From the sequence record MK327932.1: DNA of 64,000 nt, one strand, 5' to 3'. The translations under genes were made by a program, and so were the position numbers. Within the stretch, counting starts at the first letter, position 1. Each line of letters begins with the position of its first letter. Shown here piece after piece: positions 59,343 through 63,996 of this stretch. This DNA comes from Escherichia phage vB_EcoM_G2248. The notes below the pieces were generated by a model that had not been told where the DNA came from, ran no database searches, and worked only from the letters and a program-made list of their open reading frames with translations.

Positions 59343-59675
59343 TTATAGTCTCCTGAATGGATCATCACGTAAATCAATATCTTTTAAGAACTCATCCCAT
59401 GAATGGCGGATATTGTTCTTAATTCTCCAGATAAGCGCAGGGATTGAACGCTCTCCCATCTGGAAGTATGGATCATATGATCCGTATGCCCAATATGCTA
59501 CTACAATTCCACAATCAGCGCAATAGTATTCTATTTCACTTGCTGGCGACCAAAGTCCATCAATATGATCGGTGATCTTGCTTTCGATGTTATGGCTATG
59601 ACAATCAGGGCAACGGATGCAATGACCTTGTTTATCGTAATTTGACGTTAGCGAATACTTAAACAATCTCATCAT
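59343..59675 (-). CDS. zinc-finger-like small protein (110 aa)
   Basis: CIRCPDCHSH ... CADCG Cys pairs; overlaps neighbours by 4 nt. Confidence 0.5.
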   Translation of the reverse strand: MMRLFKYSLTSNYDKQGHCIRCPDCHSHNIESKITDHIDGLWSPASEIEYYCADCGIVVAYWAYGSYDPYFQMGERSIPALIWRIKNNIRHSWDEFLKDIDLRDDPFRRL

Positions 59676-60388
59676 AGATCCTTATTTGCTTCAAATACTG
59701 CCTTTGCGAATCCTCGCGGGGTAAGTGACCTGATAGTCTTTGTTTTCGTTCCTTTCCCGCCTAGCTTAGAATGCTGTTTACTGTACCCTTTATTAATCTG
59801 CAAAGGTTTCTTTTCTGGCATTATAAAGCCTTGTCCGGTCCATAAGCAAGTCTTTTTCGGGTACATATCACGGGCGGCAATATACTCAGGAAAAGTAGGA
59901 TGTTTATCATCTTCCGGCAAATAACCGCCATATTCCCACGGATGGAACATATAATCAGGCTTACGCCACATGCTAGAGATAACGCTTACAGGATTCTCTA
60001 TCATGTAGGGAACTCCTAGCCATTCACCCAAATAAGCGGTTATTTTAGCTGCCCTTACATCATGAACTTGAATCAATGGTCCTTGCTCTCGTTTCTTTCG
60101 TTCAAAGTGTGCAGCGCCACTAACAGCTAAATTGGTGCACGGTGGGAATGCAAAGATAATATCCGGTTTCCCCCATTCAAGGTCCATTGCTCTTTCCAGC
60201 CAGTTCAAATCAATCCATGTGTTTACATAGGTAATGTTTGGATGTTCAAATCGGGTATTATACTTTTTGTATGTACCGTGGTCGCCATCGTCAGCATTAA
60301 AGCAGATCACCTTATGACCTGCTTTAGCCCATTCTAACCCCATTATCCCCGATCCGTCAAAGTTGCAGAATATTAATTTTTGTTTCAC
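59672..60388 (-). CDS. minimal C5-methyltransferase-like protein (238 aa; motifs I, IV, VI, no obvious target-recognition domain)
   Basis: FCNFDGSGIMGLEWAKAG (FxGxG), IIFAFPPCTNLAVSG (PC catalytic Cys), YMIENPVSV (ENV-like); GTG start overlapping upstream stop. Confidence 0.5.
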   Translation of the reverse strand: MKQKLIFCNFDGSGIMGLEWAKAGHKVICFNADDGDHGTYKKYNTRFEHPNITYVNTWIDLNWLERAMDLEWGKPDIIFAFPPCTNLAVSGAAHFERKKREQGPLIQVHDVRAAKITAYLGEWLGVPYMIENPVSVISSMWRKPDYMFHPWEYGGYLPEDDKHPTFPEYIAARDMYPKKTCLWTGQGFIMPEKKPLQINKGYSKQHSKLGGKGTKTKTIRSLTPRGFAKAVFEANKDL

Positions 60389-60636: not shown

Positions 60637-60676
60637 TGTTTGATTCTCCTAAGTGGTATCTCGTCTTGATGGTTGC

Positions 60677-60705
60677 ATTGTAGGGGAGTTATCCTCCCCT
60701 GTCAA
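60677..60705 (-). promoter_or_regulatory. sigma70-type early promoter (TTGACA-N17-TACAAT, minus strand)
   Basis: palindromic spacer ggggaggataactcccc; conserved leader. Confidence 0.6.
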
Positions 60706-60712
60706 CACTTTT

Positions 60713-60886
60713 TATAAAATTATTTGTTAATTTCTGGTGCGTTGCTAGGATAGTAACCTTCTTTAACTCCGAGGTATTTCGCAACCATCCCTACAATCTT
60801 CTGTGCTACTACAATGTCAAATTTCAGATAATCTTCGCCGTGGGTTTCAATGATATATGCTTCACATGCTGCTTTAGTCTCGAACA
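60713..60886 (-). CDS. small hypothetical early protein (57 aa)
   Basis: ATG behind conserved leader/RBS; below ORF-track cutoff. Confidence 0.4.
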
Positions 60887-60920
60887 TTTTGATTCTCCTA
60901 TTTCGTTTCGGTATGTGTGT

Positions 60921-60949
60921 AGTATAGGGGATCTCCCGATCCCCGTCAA
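60921..60949 (-). promoter_or_regulatory. sigma70-type early promoter (TTGACG-N17-TATACT, minus strand)
   Basis: same cassette architecture and leader as the other copies. Confidence 0.5.
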
Positions 60950-60963
60950 CAACTTTTTTAAAA

Positions 60964-61245
60964 TTATTCGTGATTAGTTTCGATGTTGTGCATTTTGCAC
61001 CAGTTCAGCCAATCACCCAGATCCTGATAGTTAATGCTTTTATCTGCTGCCATCGTTTTTGTCTTGATACCCATATGTGCGTTATGAGTAAGCATTTTTA
61101 CAGTGAACTCGATTTTATCGCCTTTAGCTTTAACATCAACCAGTTTGGTCCACTGGCTACCAGCGCCGCGAATGTTCATGCCAACGATGTTTCCGATGTA
61201 TGCTTCTTTGTTTTTCATGATTTCGGTTGCTTTGATGAATTTCAT
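60964..61245 (-). CDS. hypothetical 93-aa early protein
   Basis: ORF behind promoter cassette. Confidence 0.5.
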   Translation of the reverse strand: MKFIKATEIMKNKEAYIGNIVGMNIRGAGSQWTKLVDVKAKGDKIEFTVKMLTHNAHMGIKTKTMAADKSINYQDLGDWLNWCKMHNIETNHE

Positions 61246-61278
61246 TTTTGATTCTCCAATTCGTTTCGGTATGGGTGT

Positions 61279-61307
61279 ATTATGCTATGTTCTTACTTTG
61301 GTGTCAA
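61279..61307 (-). promoter_or_regulatory. sigma70-type early promoter (TTGACA-N17-CATAAT, minus strand)
   Basis: plus strand attatg..tgtcaa; conserved leader. Confidence 0.6.
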
Positions 61308-61314
61308 CAACTTT

Positions 61315-61584
61315 TTAGATATTTTCAGAAATAAATTTTAAAACTTGACGTAAATGTTTCTCATCTTTGATAGTCGCCGGAAGTTCTTCTTTTACTTCTT
61401 GTGCAAGATAGATATTTCCGTTCCAAGTGAAAGATCCGTCTTCGTTTACGCGATAGCTGAACATCCACTCGCAATCATTTTCGATTTCATATACACACAG
61501 AAGGGTGTAATCGTTAAAGCTATTGATTTCAAGGTCGAAGCCGTGACGTTTTGCAAAGTTGGTAGTGGTTTTAGTCAGTACCAT
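61315..61584 (-). CDS. hypothetical 89-aa early protein
   Basis: ORF behind promoter cassette. Confidence 0.5.
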   Translation of the reverse strand: MVLTKTTTNFAKRHGFDLEINSFNDYTLLCVYEIENDCEWMFSYRVNEDGSFTWNGNIYLAQEVKEELPATIKDEKHLRQVLKFISENI

Positions 61585-61624
61585 TGTTTGATTCTCCTAA
61601 GTGGTATCTCGTTTCGATGGTTGT

Positions 61625-61653
61625 ATTATGCTATACACAGGATCTGGTGTCAA
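61625..61653 (-). promoter_or_regulatory. sigma70-type early promoter (TTGACA-N17-CATAAT, minus strand)
   Basis: plus strand attatg..tgtcaa; conserved leader. Confidence 0.6.
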
Positions 61654-61678
61654 TACCTTTTTTAAAAATTTTGGCAAT

Positions 61679-61710: not shown

Positions 61711-62019
61711 TCAACGAGATAGATAATCGTTTTGCGCGATCTGGTCGGCGTATGCTGGTGTTACGTCAATCGCCAGCACTTTAACGCGTGCTTTCTTGCG
61801 ACCTGGGTTTTCTCGTAACCAGTGCTCATGACCGTGAACATTTTTATACTGCGATGCTTCTTCGAAGGTACGGATCGGACCTGGGTAATCAGCGTAAAGG
61901 ATCTCTAGATCTTCGGTGATGTAAAAATATACATCGTAATTGCTGTTCTCTAGCTTAAGCAGAGACTTTCGGAACATTGGGAGATTTTCGCGGGTAAATT
62001 CAAAGATATTATCTTTCAT
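61711..62019 (-). CDS. small early protein, HxHW-family paralog 1
   Basis: HGHEHW and VLAIDVT motifs shared with three downstream paralogs. Confidence 0.5.
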   Translation of the reverse strand: MKDNIFEFTRENLPMFRKSLLKLENSNYDVYFYITEDLEILYADYPGPIRTFEEASQYKNVHGHEHWLRENPGRKKARVKVLAIDVTPAYADQIAQNDYLSR

Positions 62020-62075: not shown

Positions 62076-62363
62076 TTAAAACAGTCCTTCCTGTACACCG
62101 TAGTAGAGTTCATCGCTGATAATTTCATTAATGCGACGGTGTGCATATTCCTGATTTGCGAAGTTGTCAGCAAGTTCTACTTTAGTTTCGCCGTCATGAG
62201 TCCATTTAGTGATAACTTTACCATCTGCAAATTTGAAGTTGAACTCTTTAGCTACCGCATCGCGTACCAGACGTGCAAACTTATTGTTGCGGATTGCATT
62301 GTCGGTTTCGTGTGCAGCGTGAGCGAATTTGTTAACTTTCAGAGTGATAGTAATGTATGCCAT
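62076..62363 (-). CDS. hypothetical 95-aa early protein
   Basis: ORF behind promoter cassette 62410-62438. Confidence 0.5.
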   Translation of the reverse strand: MAYITITLKVNKFAHAAHETDNAIRNNKFARLVRDAVAKEFNFKFADGKVITKWTHDGETKVELADNFANQEYAHRRINEIISDELYYGVQEGLF

Positions 62364-62409
62364 AATTTGATTCTCCTAGTTAGAAAGTGTATCTCGTTTC
62401 GATGGGGAT

Positions 62410-62438
62410 ATTATGCTATATCCCCGATCCGGTGTCAA
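62410..62438 (-). promoter_or_regulatory. sigma70-type early promoter (TTGACA-N17-CATAAT, minus strand)
   Basis: plus strand attatg..tgtcaa; conserved leader. Confidence 0.6.
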
Positions 62439-62444
62439 CACTTT

Positions 62445-62723
62445 TTATAAAATAATTTTTTGATATTTTTCTATGATGTTCGTGTAAGTCACATCAACCG
62501 CTAGCACCGTTGCTTCGAATCCACCGTTTAGCCAATGGCTATGATCATGATCGTGAAAGAAACCTAGACCAGTACGAAGACCTTCTTTATATTCTGCGCG
62601 TACATTCAGTTTGTCGTCGATAAACAGATAAAACCATGAATTTTTACTAGGATTGATGATACAACCTTTCAGATTAGGGAGAATATCACGACTAAGAATA
62701 AACTTATCACCTACTTTGAACAT
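62445..62723 (-). CDS. small early protein, HxHW-family paralog 2
   Basis: start at ATG ~62723 (GAGGA RBS); HDHSHW, VLAVDVT. Confidence 0.5.
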   Translation of the reverse strand: MFKVGDKFILSRDILPNLKGCIINPSKNSWFYLFIDDKLNVRAEYKEGLRTGLGFFHDHDHSHWLNGGFEATVLAVDVTYTNIIEKYQKIIL

Positions 62724-62737
62724 AATATTTTCCTCAC

Positions 62738-63046
62738 TTATAAAGTTTGACCGTTGTTTTTCGCGTAATGCTGAATGCGTGCTTGATCTGCTTCCGCTGG
62801 TGATAGATTCCATGCGATCACTACAACTTCTGGCGCATCATGATCATTATCACTTACCCAATGATTATGATTCATACAATTGTTTGCTATCGCGTGAGCA
62901 AATGATCTCATTACCGGAGACGTATAATCATAGTAACGGATTTTCAGATTTTCATCAACGTACAAGTAGATCGTATACGGCTTATATTCAGTAACCAGTA
63001 ACAGACAGTTACGCAATTCTGGGAAAATCTTTTTAGTTAATTTCAT
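62738..63046 (-). CDS. small early protein, HxHW-family paralog 3
   Basis: start at ATG ~63046 (GAGGA RBS); NHNHW, VVIAWNL. Confidence 0.5.
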   Translation of the reverse strand: MKLTKKIFPELRNCLLLVTEYKPYTIYLYVDENLKIRYYDYTSPVMRSFAHAIANNCMNHNHWVSDNDHDAPEVVVIAWNLSPAEADQARIQHYAKNNGQTL

Positions 63047-63047
63047 T

Positions 63048-63266
63048 TTATAATCCTCGGTCGCGGCTATAGTACACGGTACGCCATACAATTTCATGTT
63101 TCGTGTCGCTCCAGCACACGATCTCATTTACTCTTAAATCTTTGTTATCAACAAAAGATGAACATTGTGACGCTTCTTTCATCATTTTATCTGCTGTTTT
63201 CTCATCAAATACAGCACAGATTTCTTTATACACTCGATAATCTTTGAATTGACTCTGGATACCCAT
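63048..63266 (-). CDS. small early protein, FKDY-family paralog 1
   Basis: FKDYRVYKEI..KMMKEASQCSSF; in-frame ATG at 63266 preferred over GTG at 63278. Confidence 0.45.
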   Translation of the reverse strand: MGIQSQFKDYRVYKEICAVFDEKTADKMMKEASQCSSFVDNKDLRVNEIVCWSDTKHEIVWRTVYYSRDRGL

Positions 63267-63268
63267 AA

Positions 63269-63478
63269 TTAACACCACTCAAGAGTTTTTGAAAACACAT
63301 CTATCCATTGTTGAGTATATGCGGTTTCTTTCCATGAGACAATACCAGTAGAATAATGGTTTTTGTTTCCAGAAAAGGACGGGCATTTTGATGCATCTTC
63401 CATCATCTTTTCGGCGAACTCTGGTTCGTATACTCGCAAGATCTGTTGATATGCTTTATAATCTTTAAATTTGCTCAT
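63269..63478 (-). CDS. small early protein, FKDY-family paralog 2
   Basis: FKDYKAYQQI..KMMEDASKCPSF aligns with neighbouring paralog. Confidence 0.45.
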   Translation of the reverse strand: MSKFKDYKAYQQILRVYEPEFAEKMMEDASKCPSFSGNKNHYSTGIVSWKETAYTQQWIDVFSKTLEWC

Positions 63479-63743
63479 AATCGTTAACTACCTTATCAGC
63501 TTCTTTTATTGTTTTTACATCAACTGCGATAACCCGTAAAGGTTCGTCATGGTTCCACCAATGATCGTGAATATCGGCTTGTGATTTATCACCAAAGGAA
63601 TCACGAATATCATTTTTACATTTATAGCTAATGTGACCGTCATAGTCAACATAAAGGTAATTATCGAAAATCGGCGTTTTTAAGATCATACCGAAAAATC
63701 TTTCTTTGTGTGTCTTATCCAGCGTTGCAGTAATTCGCATCAT
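63465..63743 (-). CDS. small early protein, HxHW-family paralog 4
   Basis: IHDHWW, VIAVDVKT. Confidence 0.5.
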   Translation of the reverse strand: MMRITATLDKTHKERFFGMILKTPIFDNYLYVDYDGHISYKCKNDIRDSFGDKSQADIHDHWWNHDEPLRVIAVDVKTIKEADKVVNDYEQI

Positions 63744-63754
63744 AATATATTCCT

Positions 63755-63934
63755 CTTAGAAAGGGATGGTCATTTCTTGAGCTTGTACATTCTCGTTAGG
63801 ATTAAACTTCATCCAACCGATATTGTCTACCAGCATATGTACATTTTTATCATATCCTACTTGAGTAGTCAACACTAAATGTGCTTTACCTTCAACGATG
63901 ATTTCCATGTACTTCTGAACTTCGATAGCTTTCA
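63755..63934 (-). CDS. small hypothetical early protein (59 aa)
   Basis: ATG behind conserved leader/RBS at 63935-63950; below ORF-track cutoff. Confidence 0.4.
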
Positions 63935-63967
63935 TTTTGATTCTCCGTTTGTTGTCTTGATGGGAGT

Positions 63968-63996
63968 ATCTTACTACTCCCTTTAATCATTGTCAA
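63968..63996 (-). promoter_or_regulatory. probable early promoter (TTGACA with weak -10 TAAGAT, minus strand) at window edge
   Basis: tgtcaa at 63991-63996; -10 is a poor match. Confidence 0.35.

What the first reader, a model, noticed from the sequence alone, without database searches (positions are those of the whole stretch)
63048..63478. Tandem pair of FKDY-motif small early proteins
Adjacent genes 63048-63266 and 63269-63478 encode ~70-aa proteins that align along most of their length (FKDY(R/K)(V/A)Y..I..V.....KMM(K/E)(E/D)AS.C.SF..NK...), indicating a recent tandem duplication distinct from the HxHW family beside it.
Basis: seen in the sequence. Interest (0 to 1): 0.4.

Follow-up and report, generated by a model that had tools for sequence, protein, structure and literature searches.

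The report
Old paralogue pair of early phage ORFans
Two neighbouring genes of an RB49-like (Krischvirus) coliphage encode related ~70-residue helical proteins of unknown function; the pair is real but ancient, not recent, and is a fairly ordinary example of the small early accessory genes that T4-type phages shuffle.

Summary
On the minus strand, gene B (63269-63478, 69 aa) and gene A (63048-63266, 72 aa) are paralogues: 41% identity over 61 residues, E 3e-17. They correspond to RB49 ORF202c/ORF201c, and both match PHROG 8471 (unknown function).

"Recent duplication" is not supported. Synonymous sites are saturated, and only 38 nt of DNA similarity remains. B is as close to a homologue from another T4-like lineage (46%) as it is to A.

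Both genes are under purifying selection (omega 0.03-0.34). The two slots differ:
- B is nearly invariant, at 88-100% amino-acid identity.
- A is a gene-sized allelic cassette. Among 56 Krischvirus records, 31 carry allele A1, 22 carry A2 and 3 lack A. More alleles occur in metagenomes.
- Some metagenomic relatives keep only an A-type copy.

AlphaFold gives a confident four-helix fold (pLDDT 93.5). It has no PDB, Pfam, NCBIfam or PADLOC match, and no T4 homologue was found.

The family is rare and was found only in phage sequences. It also sits in the early regions of T7-like Aeromonas phages, close to a SAM-lyase gene.

The most likely role, which is inferred, is a small early host- or defence-binding protein. 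Interest is low to moderate.

The parts
63269..63478 (-). Gene B: the upstream, conserved paralogue (69 aa). It equals RB49 ORF202c / phi1 ORF202 and belongs to PHROG 8471.
   Evidence: ORF. PHROG match E 6.4e-37. 100% identical to the phi1/GEC-3S protein. Omega 0.03-0.13 across 13 orthologues. AlphaFold2 pLDDT 93.5, four helices.
63048..63266 (-). Gene A: the downstream, polymorphic paralogue (72 aa), allele A1. It equals RB49 ORF201c and belongs to PHROG 8471.
   Evidence: ORF. PHROG match E 2e-33. It is a gene-sized allelic cassette with breakpoints near 63280 and 63040. Allele census: A1 in 31 records, A2 in 22, absent in 3. Omega between A1 and A2 is 0.13-0.19.
63439..63476 (-). The 38-nt 5'-coding segment of B, which is the only stretch still similar at DNA level to A (partner copy at 63218-63255).
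   Evidence: the repeat finder family D5, 74% identity.
63218..63255 (-). The 38-nt 5'-coding segment of A that matches the 5' end of B.
   Evidence: the repeat finder family D5.
63968..63996 (-). Sigma-70-type early-promoter-like site (TTGACA-17-TAAGAT) at the head of the six-gene unit that contains B and A.
   Evidence: Consensus scan, 10/12 matches. The same kind of element (PeSL) was shown to be a strong promoter in RB49/phi1 (PMC2839356). This particular site has not been tested.
63756..63935 (-). First gene of the unit (59 aa ORFan, RB49 ORF204c homologue).
   Evidence: No Pfam hit.
63465..63743 (-). HxHW-family gene (92 aa) directly upstream of B, overlapping it by 14 nt.
   Evidence: phrog_15972. 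Replaced by a 65-76% identical allele in phi1.
62738..63046 (-). HxHW-family gene (102 aa) directly downstream of A.
   Evidence: phrog_9345. AlphaFold2 pLDDT 85.9, alpha/beta fold, no PDB match.
62445..62723 (-). HxHW-family gene (92 aa), the last gene of the unit.
   Evidence: phrog_17255.
62389..62460 (-). PeSL-type cassette (promoter TTGACA-17-CATAAT with a G/C stem-loop) that closes the unit and starts the next one.
   Evidence: Promoter scan, 11/12 matches. Repeat families D1/D2 have copies at 60656, 60913, 61258, 61604 and 62389.

Best explanation
A and B are two anciently diverged paralogues of a rare family of small phage proteins (62-96 aa, PHROG 8471). The family was found only in phage sequences. 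The proteins are soluble and fold as a compact four-helix domain that matches no solved structure.

In this Krischvirus (RB49/phi1-like T4-type coliphage) the two genes are co-transcribed as genes 3 and 4 of a six-gene unit. The unit is headed by a sigma-70-type early promoter and lies in the hyperplastic region between DNA ligase (gp30) and the Alt ADP-ribosyltransferase. Both genes are maintained by purifying selection.

The two slots behave differently. B is nearly invariant. A is exchanged between phages as a gene-sized allelic cassette, with at least four alleles and occasional absence.

What is shown: the paralogy, its age, the selection on both genes, the fold prediction, the distribution, and the early-type context in two unrelated phage groups.

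What is inferred: the proteins act stoichiometrically, soon after infection, by binding a host or host-defence protein (host takeover or counter-defence). B would cover a constant target and the A alleles would track a variable one. They are too small, and too poor in conserved polar residues, to be enzymes.

Confidence is about 0.9 for the evolutionary and structural description and about 0.35-0.4 for the binding/counter-defence mechanism. The overall figure of 0.5 blends the two.
For: Identity of the window and genes:
- The window is 93-99% identical to 57 Krischvirus records.
- The genes equal RB49 ORF201c/202c and phi1 ORF201/202.

Paralogy and age.

Selection: omega is 0.03-0.13 for B and 0.13-0.34 for A.

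Asymmetry between the slots:
- B is 88-100% identical at the amino-acid level everywhere.
- A is 72-99% identical at the nucleotide level, with sharp gene-boundary breakpoints.
- Census of 56 records: 31 A1, 22 A2, 3 with no A.
- Further alleles P0016 and P0017 sit behind a conserved B.

Either copy can be dispensed with. JSE and KMB43 lack A. Metagenomic L002/L003 carry only an A-clade gene.

Fold: pLDDT 93.5, four helices. The best BFVD matches below the near-identical top hit are uncharacterised proteins from Aeromonas phage phiAS7 (a sequence homologue) and Yersinia phage fHe-Yen3-01 (structural match only) (TM 0.77-0.82).

Conserved positions are mainly hydrophobic or aromatic core residues (A22, M25, A29, V47, W49, W58).

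Early context:
- Sigma-70-like promoters and PeSL repeats in the window.
- PeSL promoter activity was shown experimentally in RB49/phi1 (PMC2839356).
- In a second T4-like lineage the single copy again lies between ligase and Alt.
- In T7-like Aeromonas phages and related metagenomic contigs, the homologue lies in a run of small genes upstream of primase/helicase. On the metagenomic contigs it sits 2-4 genes upstream of an S-AdoMet lyase gene and next to a pentapeptide-repeat or DUF7267 gene.
- SAM lyase is a known anti-restriction function of T3 (own knowledge).

No homologue was found in 185,579 bacterial and archaeal genomes.
Against: - There is no direct functional evidence. No similarity was found to any characterised protein in Pfam, NCBIfam, PADLOC, PDB sequences or PDB folds. 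No paper on these genes was found.
- The genomic-context argument is weak, because almost everything in these regions is an uncharacterised early ORFan.
- Omega between A alleles is well below 1, so there is no direct signal of positive selection. The allelic diversity could reflect cassette shuffling without any arms race.
- The podophage homologues are basic (pI 9.5-9.8, with a K/R-rich N-terminal extension), whereas the T4-like ones are neutral to acidic. That difference would also fit a nucleic-acid-associated role.
- The promoter call is a consensus match only.
Confidence: 0.5

Rival explanations
1. The pair is a recent in-situ tandem duplication, whose copies are still largely redundant.
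For: The genes are adjacent and in the same orientation, separated by 2 nt, and align without gaps over 61 residues. A 38-nt stretch at the two 5' ends is still 74% identical.
Against: pS is 0.80 (saturated) and third-position identity is 41%. B is no closer to A than to P0011 from another lineage. Both clades are present across the whole genus, in 53 of 56 records. The two slots show very different evolutionary behaviour.
Confidence: 0.03
2. The second copy was not made by duplication in place. It was acquired horizontally as a cassette from another phage carrying a diverged homologue, and was inserted next to the resident gene by recombination at short junction sequences.
For: - A behaves today as a gene-sized exchangeable cassette with breakpoints at its boundaries.
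- Mosaic alleles exist: L004 is A2-like at its 5' end and A1-like at its 3' end.
- In JSE the same junction (GTGGTGTTAATTATG, translating to MVLIM) leads into a different gene.
- P0011 groups weakly with the A clade rather than outside A+B (41% bootstrap).
- Cassette shuffling is documented for this region of RB49/phi1 (PMC2839356).
Against: The tree does not resolve the order of events; support is 41-45% at the relevant nodes. An ancient in-place duplication followed by allele exchange explains the same data. No donor lineage was identified.
Confidence: 0.3
3. The proteins are small nucleic-acid-binding regulators of transcription, translation or mRNA stability, acting on phage or host nucleic acids rather than on a host protein.
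For: The family is all-helical and small. Podophage members carry a conserved K/R-rich N-terminal extension (MLKRKRKxNK) and have pI 9.5-9.8. The genes lie in early units with many regulators in T4-type phages (own knowledge).
Against: The copies in this window are neutral (pI 6.55, net charge -0.4), and other T4-like members are acidic (pI 4.5-5.3). Foldseek finds no helix-turn-helix or other DNA-binding fold in the PDB. Pfam shows no DNA-binding domain.
Confidence: 0.15
4. A and B, possibly with the flanking HxHW proteins, work together as subunits of one complex, such as a heterodimer, rather than as independent specialised inhibitors.
For: The genes are tightly packed, with short gaps or overlaps suggesting translational coupling. 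An FKDY-family gene is also followed directly by an HxHW gene in the distant contig L005.
Against: - JSE and KMB43 do without A, and L002/L003 do without B.
- In L006 the single copy is not adjacent to an HxHW gene.
- Podophage homologues are single-copy in the contexts seen, and no HxHW gene was noted beside them, though the neighbours were not screened for the family.
- A alleles are swapped while B stays constant.
Confidence: 0.12

Closest known systems
PHROG 8471 (phage protein family of unknown function) = RB49 ORF201c/ORF202c, phi1 ORF201/ORF202
   Same: Both window proteins match the profile end to end (E 2e-33 and 6e-37). They are 100% identical to the RB49 (A) and phi1 (B) proteins.
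   Different: Nothing differs; this is the family. It has no assigned function, no Pfam model and no solved structure. I found no published description of the internal paralogy or of the A-slot polymorphism.
PeSL-flanked ORFan cassettes of the RB49/phi1 hyperplastic regions (Arbiol, Comeau, Kutateladze, Adamia, Krisch 2010, PMC2839356)
   Same: The phage group, the genome region, the sigma-70-type early promoters with G/C stem-loops, and the gain, loss and replacement of small ORFans between close relatives are all the same.
   Different: A and B are not individually flanked by PeSLs. They sit inside a six-gene block between two such elements. The A-allele breakpoints fall at gene junctions with only 1-2 nt spacers, so exchange here seems to use flanking coding homology or short junction motifs rather than PeSL-PeSL recombination.
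Small early host-takeover and counter-defence proteins of T4 (e.g. AsiA, Arn, Dmd, Alc, Stp)
   Same: They share the size class (26-170 aa), early expression from host-RNAP promoters, location in accessory regions, dispensability in some relatives, and action by stoichiometric binding. This describes the T4 proteins from own knowledge and is only inferred for A and B.
   Different: There is no sequence similarity: hmmsearch of six-frame T4 ORFs from about 132 of 169 kb, including dmd, asiA, arn and alc, gave a best E of 0.78. There is no fold similarity to any PDB entry. The proteins are not acidic DNA mimics like Arn or Ocr (pI 6.55).
Early-region small proteins of T7-like Aeromonas phages (phiAS7 gp15, Atoyac15 gp24) and a structurally matching Yersinia phage fHe-Yen3-01 protein
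   Same: The Aeromonas proteins are true homologues. Profile E is 3e-17 to 3e-20, tblastn E is 8e-4, and Foldseek TM is 0.77 at probability 1.00. They lie in the run of small genes upstream of primase/helicase; on related metagenomic contigs the homologue sits near a SAM-lyase gene.
   Different: They are longer (79-92 aa), with a basic N-terminal extension and basic pI. They appear as single copies. All are uncharacterised, so they add context but no function. The Yersinia protein is a structural match only (TM 0.82, 17% identity) and did not appear in the sequence searches.

Membership tests
PHROG 8471 | Full-length match to the family profile | tested here: met
   A matches at E 2e-33 (residues 3-70 on profile positions 2-69 of 71). 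B matches at E 6.4e-37 (residues 1-69 on positions 3-71 of 71).
Recent tandem duplicate | Low synonymous divergence and high nucleotide identity between the copies | tested here: not met
   55% nucleotide identity, 41% at third positions, pS 0.80 (saturated), dN 0.51. Only 38 nt of detectable DNA repeat.
Recent tandem duplicate | Copies are each other's closest relatives, and the duplication is restricted to a few close genomes | tested here: not met
   B-A identity is 39-45%, against 46% for B-P0011. The A+B(+P0011) node has only 45% support. The pair is present in 53 of 56 Krischvirus records.
Functional (non-pseudogene) protein-coding genes | Intact ORFs with dN/dS well below 1 across orthologues | tested here: met
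   For B, omega is 0.03-0.13 at dS 0.1-1.0. For A, omega is 0.13-0.34. ORFs are intact in all 13 loci inspected.
T4-type early gene | Downstream of a sigma-70-type early promoter, with no intervening terminator, and on the early-transcribed strand | tested here: inconclusive
   A promoter-like site lies at 63996-63968 (10/12), and no terminator-like site lies between it and the pair. The element class was validated in RB49/phi1 (PMC2839356). There are no transcript data for this locus.
PeSL-flanked mobile ORFan cassette (Arbiol et al. 2010) | The gene is individually bracketed by PeSL elements | tested here: not met
   There are no PeSL copies between 62460 and 63968. A and B are separated from their neighbours by 1-2 nt or by overlaps. 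Only the six-gene block is bracketed.
DNA-mimic anti-restriction proteins (Ocr/Arn type) | Strongly acidic protein with a large net negative charge | tested here: not met
   A and B have pI 6.55 and net charge -0.4. There is no fold match in the PDB.
Known T4 small early proteins (Dmd, AsiA, Arn, Alc and others) | Detectable sequence or fold homology | tested here: not met
   hmmsearch of the family profile against T4 six-frame ORFs gave a best E of 0.78. Foldseek against the PDB gave a best E of 7.4.
Any Pfam / NCBIfam / PADLOC family | Score above the curated cut-off | tested here: not met
   Nothing exceeded a cut-off for any of the 13 family members.
Phage counter-defence / host-takeover binder (functional class) | Physical binding to a host or defence protein, with a phenotype on defence-carrying hosts | not testable with these tools
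   Only indirect context is available: early units in two phage groups, proximity to a SAM lyase in podophage-like contigs, and allelic polymorphism of A.

The most novel reading that the evidence does not exclude
PHROG 8471 is a new fold family of early phage counter-defence or host-takeover proteins shared by T4-like and T7-like phages. In Krischvirus it has split into a constant copy (B) and a hypervariable, exchangeable copy (A). The A alleles (A1, A2, the P0016 type, the P0017 type, or none) would determine which variants of a polymorphic E. coli target or defence system the phage can neutralise. The A slot would then act as a host-range or defence-escape switch.
Probability: 0.2. Interest if true: 0.55.

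Novelty: new member of a known kind. Interest (0 to 1): 0.27.

Why it matters
As it stands, this is one more pair of uncharacterised ORFans in the hyperplastic early region of a T4-type phage. That is a common situation, and it was described in general terms for RB49/phi1 in 2010.

Three things make it worth a modest note.
- The family has a confident predicted fold with no solved relative.
- It crosses from Straboviridae to Autographiviridae, always in early gene clusters.
- The pair offers a clean natural experiment. One slot is frozen. The other segregates as two common alleles (31 versus 22 of 56 genomes), with natural knock-outs of either copy.

If the A alleles correlate with the ability to grow on particular E. 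coli strains or defence systems, these would be easy genes to assign a function to. Krischvirus phages are also used in phage-therapy collections.

Tried and rejected
Homology and fold searches that found nothing:
- Pfam, NCBIfam and PADLOC scans of 13 family members gave nothing above noise.
- A PDB sequence-profile search gave a best E of 0.05, to an RxLR effector; I treat this as noise.
- Foldseek of the B model against the PDB gave a best E of 7.4. Against BFVD, the only matches at E < 0.01 below the near-identical top hit were the phiAS7 homologue and an uncharacterised Yersinia phage protein.
- Searching for a T4 counterpart in six-frame ORFs of about 132 kb of T4 found none.
- Searching for a third copy in the 64-kb window found none.
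- Testing for a remote relationship to the neighbouring HxHW family with hhalign found none.

Collection scans:
- A pattern scan of bacterial and archaeal genomes found no relatives.
- A pattern scan of JGI metagenomes found no relatives.
- IMG/VR gave only two Krischvirus contigs.
- The broad alignment A2 was too divergent for pattern scanning.

Literature searches on Krischvirus anti-defence, RB49 ORFan toxicity and fHe-Yen3-01 found nothing on these genes.

The structure of the adjacent HxHW protein was predicted as context. It is a confident alpha/beta fold with no PDB match, so it gave no functional lead.

Readings considered and rejected:
- Pseudogene: rejected because omega is far below 1.
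- DNA mimic: rejected because the proteins are not acidic.
- Membrane or secreted protein: rejected because GRAVY is -0.6 to -0.7 and there is no hydrophobic segment.
- Enzyme: rejected because the proteins are 62-96 aa and the conserved positions are mostly hydrophobic core residues.

Full report
**What the window is.** The 2-kb stretch around the finding is 93-99% identical to 57 GenBank phage records. These are Krischvirus-type coliphages and Shigella phages (RB49, phi1, JSE and relatives; Straboviridae). In the closest annotated relative, the genes lie in a run of about 30 small minus-strand "hypothetical protein" genes between DNA ligase (gp30) and the Alt ADP-ribosyltransferase. In T4 only one small gene (alt.1) occupies that interval. 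This is one of the hyperplastic regions of RB49-type phages.

**Checking the observation.** Both ORFs are on the minus strand.
- A is 63048-63266, 72 aa from its ATG, with an alternative GTG start at 63278.
- B is 63269-63478, 69 aa.
- BLASTP gives 25/61 identities (41%), no gaps, E 3e-17.
- A composition-preserving shuffle gives 7.8 +/- 1.3 identities, with a maximum of 15 in 20,000 shuffles.
- Both match PHROG 8471, of unknown function, over their full length.
- They correspond to RB49 ORF201c/ORF202c and phi1 ORF201/ORF202.
- The flanking HxHW genes belong to other PHROGs and are unrelated by profile-profile comparison (probability 0.06%).

**Expression context.**
- A sigma-70-type promoter-like site (TTGACA-17-TAAGAT) lies at 63996-63968.
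- No terminator-like site lies between it and the pair.
- The next strong promoter (TTGACA-17-CATAAT) is at 62438-62410.
- That site sits in one of five copies of a ~60-nt repeat carrying a promoter and a G/C stem-loop.
- These repeats are the PeSL cassettes described for RB49/phi1. There, two such elements (193/192 and 206/205) were shown to be strong promoters and one stem-loop an efficient terminator (PMC2839356).

The transcription unit therefore appears to be: 59-aa ORFan, HxHW-92, B, A, HxHW-102, HxHW-92. The spacers are 1-2 nt, or the genes overlap. Shine-Dalgarno-like sequences precede both B and A. "Early" is thus plausible, but it rests on consensus matches and analogy, not on transcript data.

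**The duplication is not recent.**
- Over 61 aligned codons, nucleotide identity is 55% and third-position identity is 41%.
- pS is 0.80, beyond the correction limit, and dN is 0.51.
- The only DNA-level repeat is 38 nt at 74% at the two 5' ends.
- B is 39-45% identical to the A alleles, but 46% identical to P0011, a homologue from a different T4-like metagenomic lineage.
- A neighbour-joining tree with 300 bootstraps gives a B clade at 100% and an A clade at 94%. The node joining A, B and P0011 is unresolved, at 41-45%.
- tblastn finds the pair in 53 of 56 Krischvirus records.

The split is therefore at least as old as the sampled genus, and possibly older. Whether the second copy arose in place or arrived as a cassette cannot be resolved with about 66 alignment columns.

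**Both genes are functional, but the two slots evolve differently.**
- Nei-Gojobori estimates across 13 loci give omega 0.03-0.13 for B, at dS 0.1-1.0.
- For A, omega is 0.13-0.19 between the two main alleles and 0.2-0.34 for comparisons involving the mosaic allele.
- B is 88-100% identical in protein everywhere it occurs.

A comes in sharply different alleles.
- A1 occurs in this window, RB49, G37-3 and GoldenSnicker.
- A2 occurs in phi1, ECD7, Brandy, ELT3 and SSG23.
- A1 and A2 are 62% identical in protein, with saturated dS.
- A sliding comparison shows that the difference is confined to the gene itself, between about 63280 and 63040. The flanks are 95-100% identical.
- This window combines a phi1-type B (100%) with an RB49-type A (100%).
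- Census of the 56 records: 31 A1, 22 A2, 3 without A.
- In JSE and KMB43 the junction after B leads straight into a different HxHW gene.
- Metagenomic contigs add two more A alleles (P0016, P0017) behind a conserved B.
- L004 carries a mosaic allele, A2-like at its 5' end and A1-like at its 3' end.
- Two contigs that are about 78% identical to the window carry a single gene that falls in the A clade, which means B is missing there.

Either copy can therefore be absent in nature.

**Family and fold.**
- The family is rare: 21 clusters among 5.8 billion and 9 representatives among 1.84 billion.
- Two IMG/VR contigs carry it.
- Pattern scans found none in 185,579 bacterial and archaeal genomes or in JGI metagenomes.
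- Other members occur in another T4-like phage, again between ligase and Alt and as a single copy.
- Members also occur in T7-like Aeromonas phages (Melnykvirinae: phiAS7 gp15, Atoyac) and related metagenomic contigs.
  - There the gene lies in a run of small genes upstream of primase/helicase.
  - On the metagenomic contigs it sits 2-4 genes upstream of an S-AdoMet-lyase gene and beside a pentapeptide-repeat or DUF7267 gene.
- AlphaFold2 on a 9-sequence alignment gives pLDDT 93.5 and pTM 0.80. The helices span residues 8-14, 19-30, 43-46 and 55-68.
- Foldseek finds nothing in the PDB (best E 7.4).
- In BFVD, below the near-identical top hit, the best matches are the phiAS7 homologue and an uncharacterised Yersinia phage protein (TM 0.77-0.82).
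- Pfam, NCBIfam, PADLOC and PDB sequence profiles give nothing.
- A profile search of T4 six-frame ORFs has a best E of 0.78, and there is no third copy in the window.
- Invariant or near-invariant positions are mostly core hydrophobic or aromatic residues (A22, M25, A29, V47, W49, W58), plus an acidic residue at position 28 and T52.
- The window proteins are neutral (pI 6.55), other T4-like members are acidic, and podophage members are basic with a K/R-rich N-terminal extension.

**Interpretation.** The following are shown:
- a real, ancient paralogue pair;
- purifying selection on both genes;
- a conserved slot and a polymorphic slot;
- a confident new-looking helical fold;
- a phage-only distribution in early-type contexts in two unrelated phage groups.

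The mechanism is inferred. The proteins are too small, and too poor in conserved polar residues, for catalysis. They most probably act by binding a host or defence component soon after infection. The A alleles may track a variable target.

This inference rests on analogy with other small early phage proteins and on context. I give it about 0.35-0.4. The alternatives are a nucleic-acid-binding regulator, subunits of a complex, and horizontal acquisition rather than in-place duplication of the second copy. They are scored separately above.

**Verdict.** The genes are already annotated as hypothetical proteins and catalogued as PHROG 8471. I found no paper that describes the paralogy or the allelic behaviour of the A slot. 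This is an ordinary member of the known class of shuffled early ORFans in T4-type hyperplastic regions, with a tidy natural polymorphism that would make functional follow-up easy. Interest is 0.27.

Noticed in passing
window 61711-62019, 62445-62723, 62738-63046, 63465-63743 (all minus strand): There are four paralogues of an 'HxHW' family (92-102 aa; phrog_9345, 15972 and 17255). Their invariant residues are H60, H62 and W63, and they share a C-terminal V.A.DV...EAD-like motif. AlphaFold2 gives a confident alpha/beta fold (pLDDT 85.9) with no PDB match. An HxHW gene also directly follows the FKDY-family gene in the distant metagenomic contig L005 (344-649).
   Followed up: partly
window 60656-60727, 60913-60971, 61258-61321, 61604-61675, 62389-62460: There are five copies of a ~60-nt intergenic repeat that combines a TTGACA-17-CATAAT-type promoter with a G/C-rich stem-loop. 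These are the PeSL mobile regulatory cassettes described for RB49/phi1 (PMC2839356).
   Followed up: partly
window 63461-63760 and 62441-63040, compared with L015 (phi1), L010 (JSE) and L014 (KMB43): Gene-sized allelic replacement is not limited to gene A. In phi1 the upstream HxHW gene is a 65-76% identical allele inside flanks that are at least 97% identical. In JSE and KMB43 the two downstream HxHW genes are replaced by 45-68% identical versions.
   Followed up: partly
L011 1495-1758 (RB49 ORF202c); P0004: In RB49-type genomes, sequence differences near the 3' end of B remove its stop codon. The ORF then reads 16 codons further (85-87 aa) and overlaps the start of A by about 50 nt. The 85-aa form is the commonest cluster in the protein collection, with 97 member sequences. 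The window has the short, phi1-type end.
   Followed up: partly
P0005 (66 aa, on a 123-kb metagenomic contig); corresponds to window 63279-63386: This is a variant of B that switches after residue 39 into the alternative frame seen in the window as the 35-aa ORF 63279-63386. It is either a genuine frameshifted (pseudogenised) B in one phage or an assembly error.
   Followed up: no
L008 4929-5204 (phiAS7 gp15), L009 3902-4180, L020 2823-3113, L022 2778-3026, L024 5001-5252: Podophage members of the family carry a conserved basic N-terminal extension (MLKRKRKxNK...). They lie in a run of small genes upstream of primase/helicase. On the metagenomic contigs they sit a few genes upstream of an S-AdoMet-lyase gene (PF23780) and next to a pentapeptide-repeat protein (L020) or a DUF7267 protein.
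   Followed up: partly
window 59672-60388 (minus strand): This is a 238-aa ORF whose sequence contains FDGSG and FPPC...SGA stretches. By eye these resemble motifs I and IV of C5 DNA methyltransferases, but there was no Pfam hit at E <= 0.01. It is annotated as hypothetical in relatives.
   Followed up: partly
L006 5672-5959 and 6288-6560, compared with window 62076-62363 and 61315-61584: The ORFans that flank the single FKDY-family gene in the distant T4-like contig L006 resemble window genes that lie 0.7-1.7 kb away from the pair (judged by eye from the translations). The same small genes therefore appear reshuffled in order between lineages.
   Followed up: no
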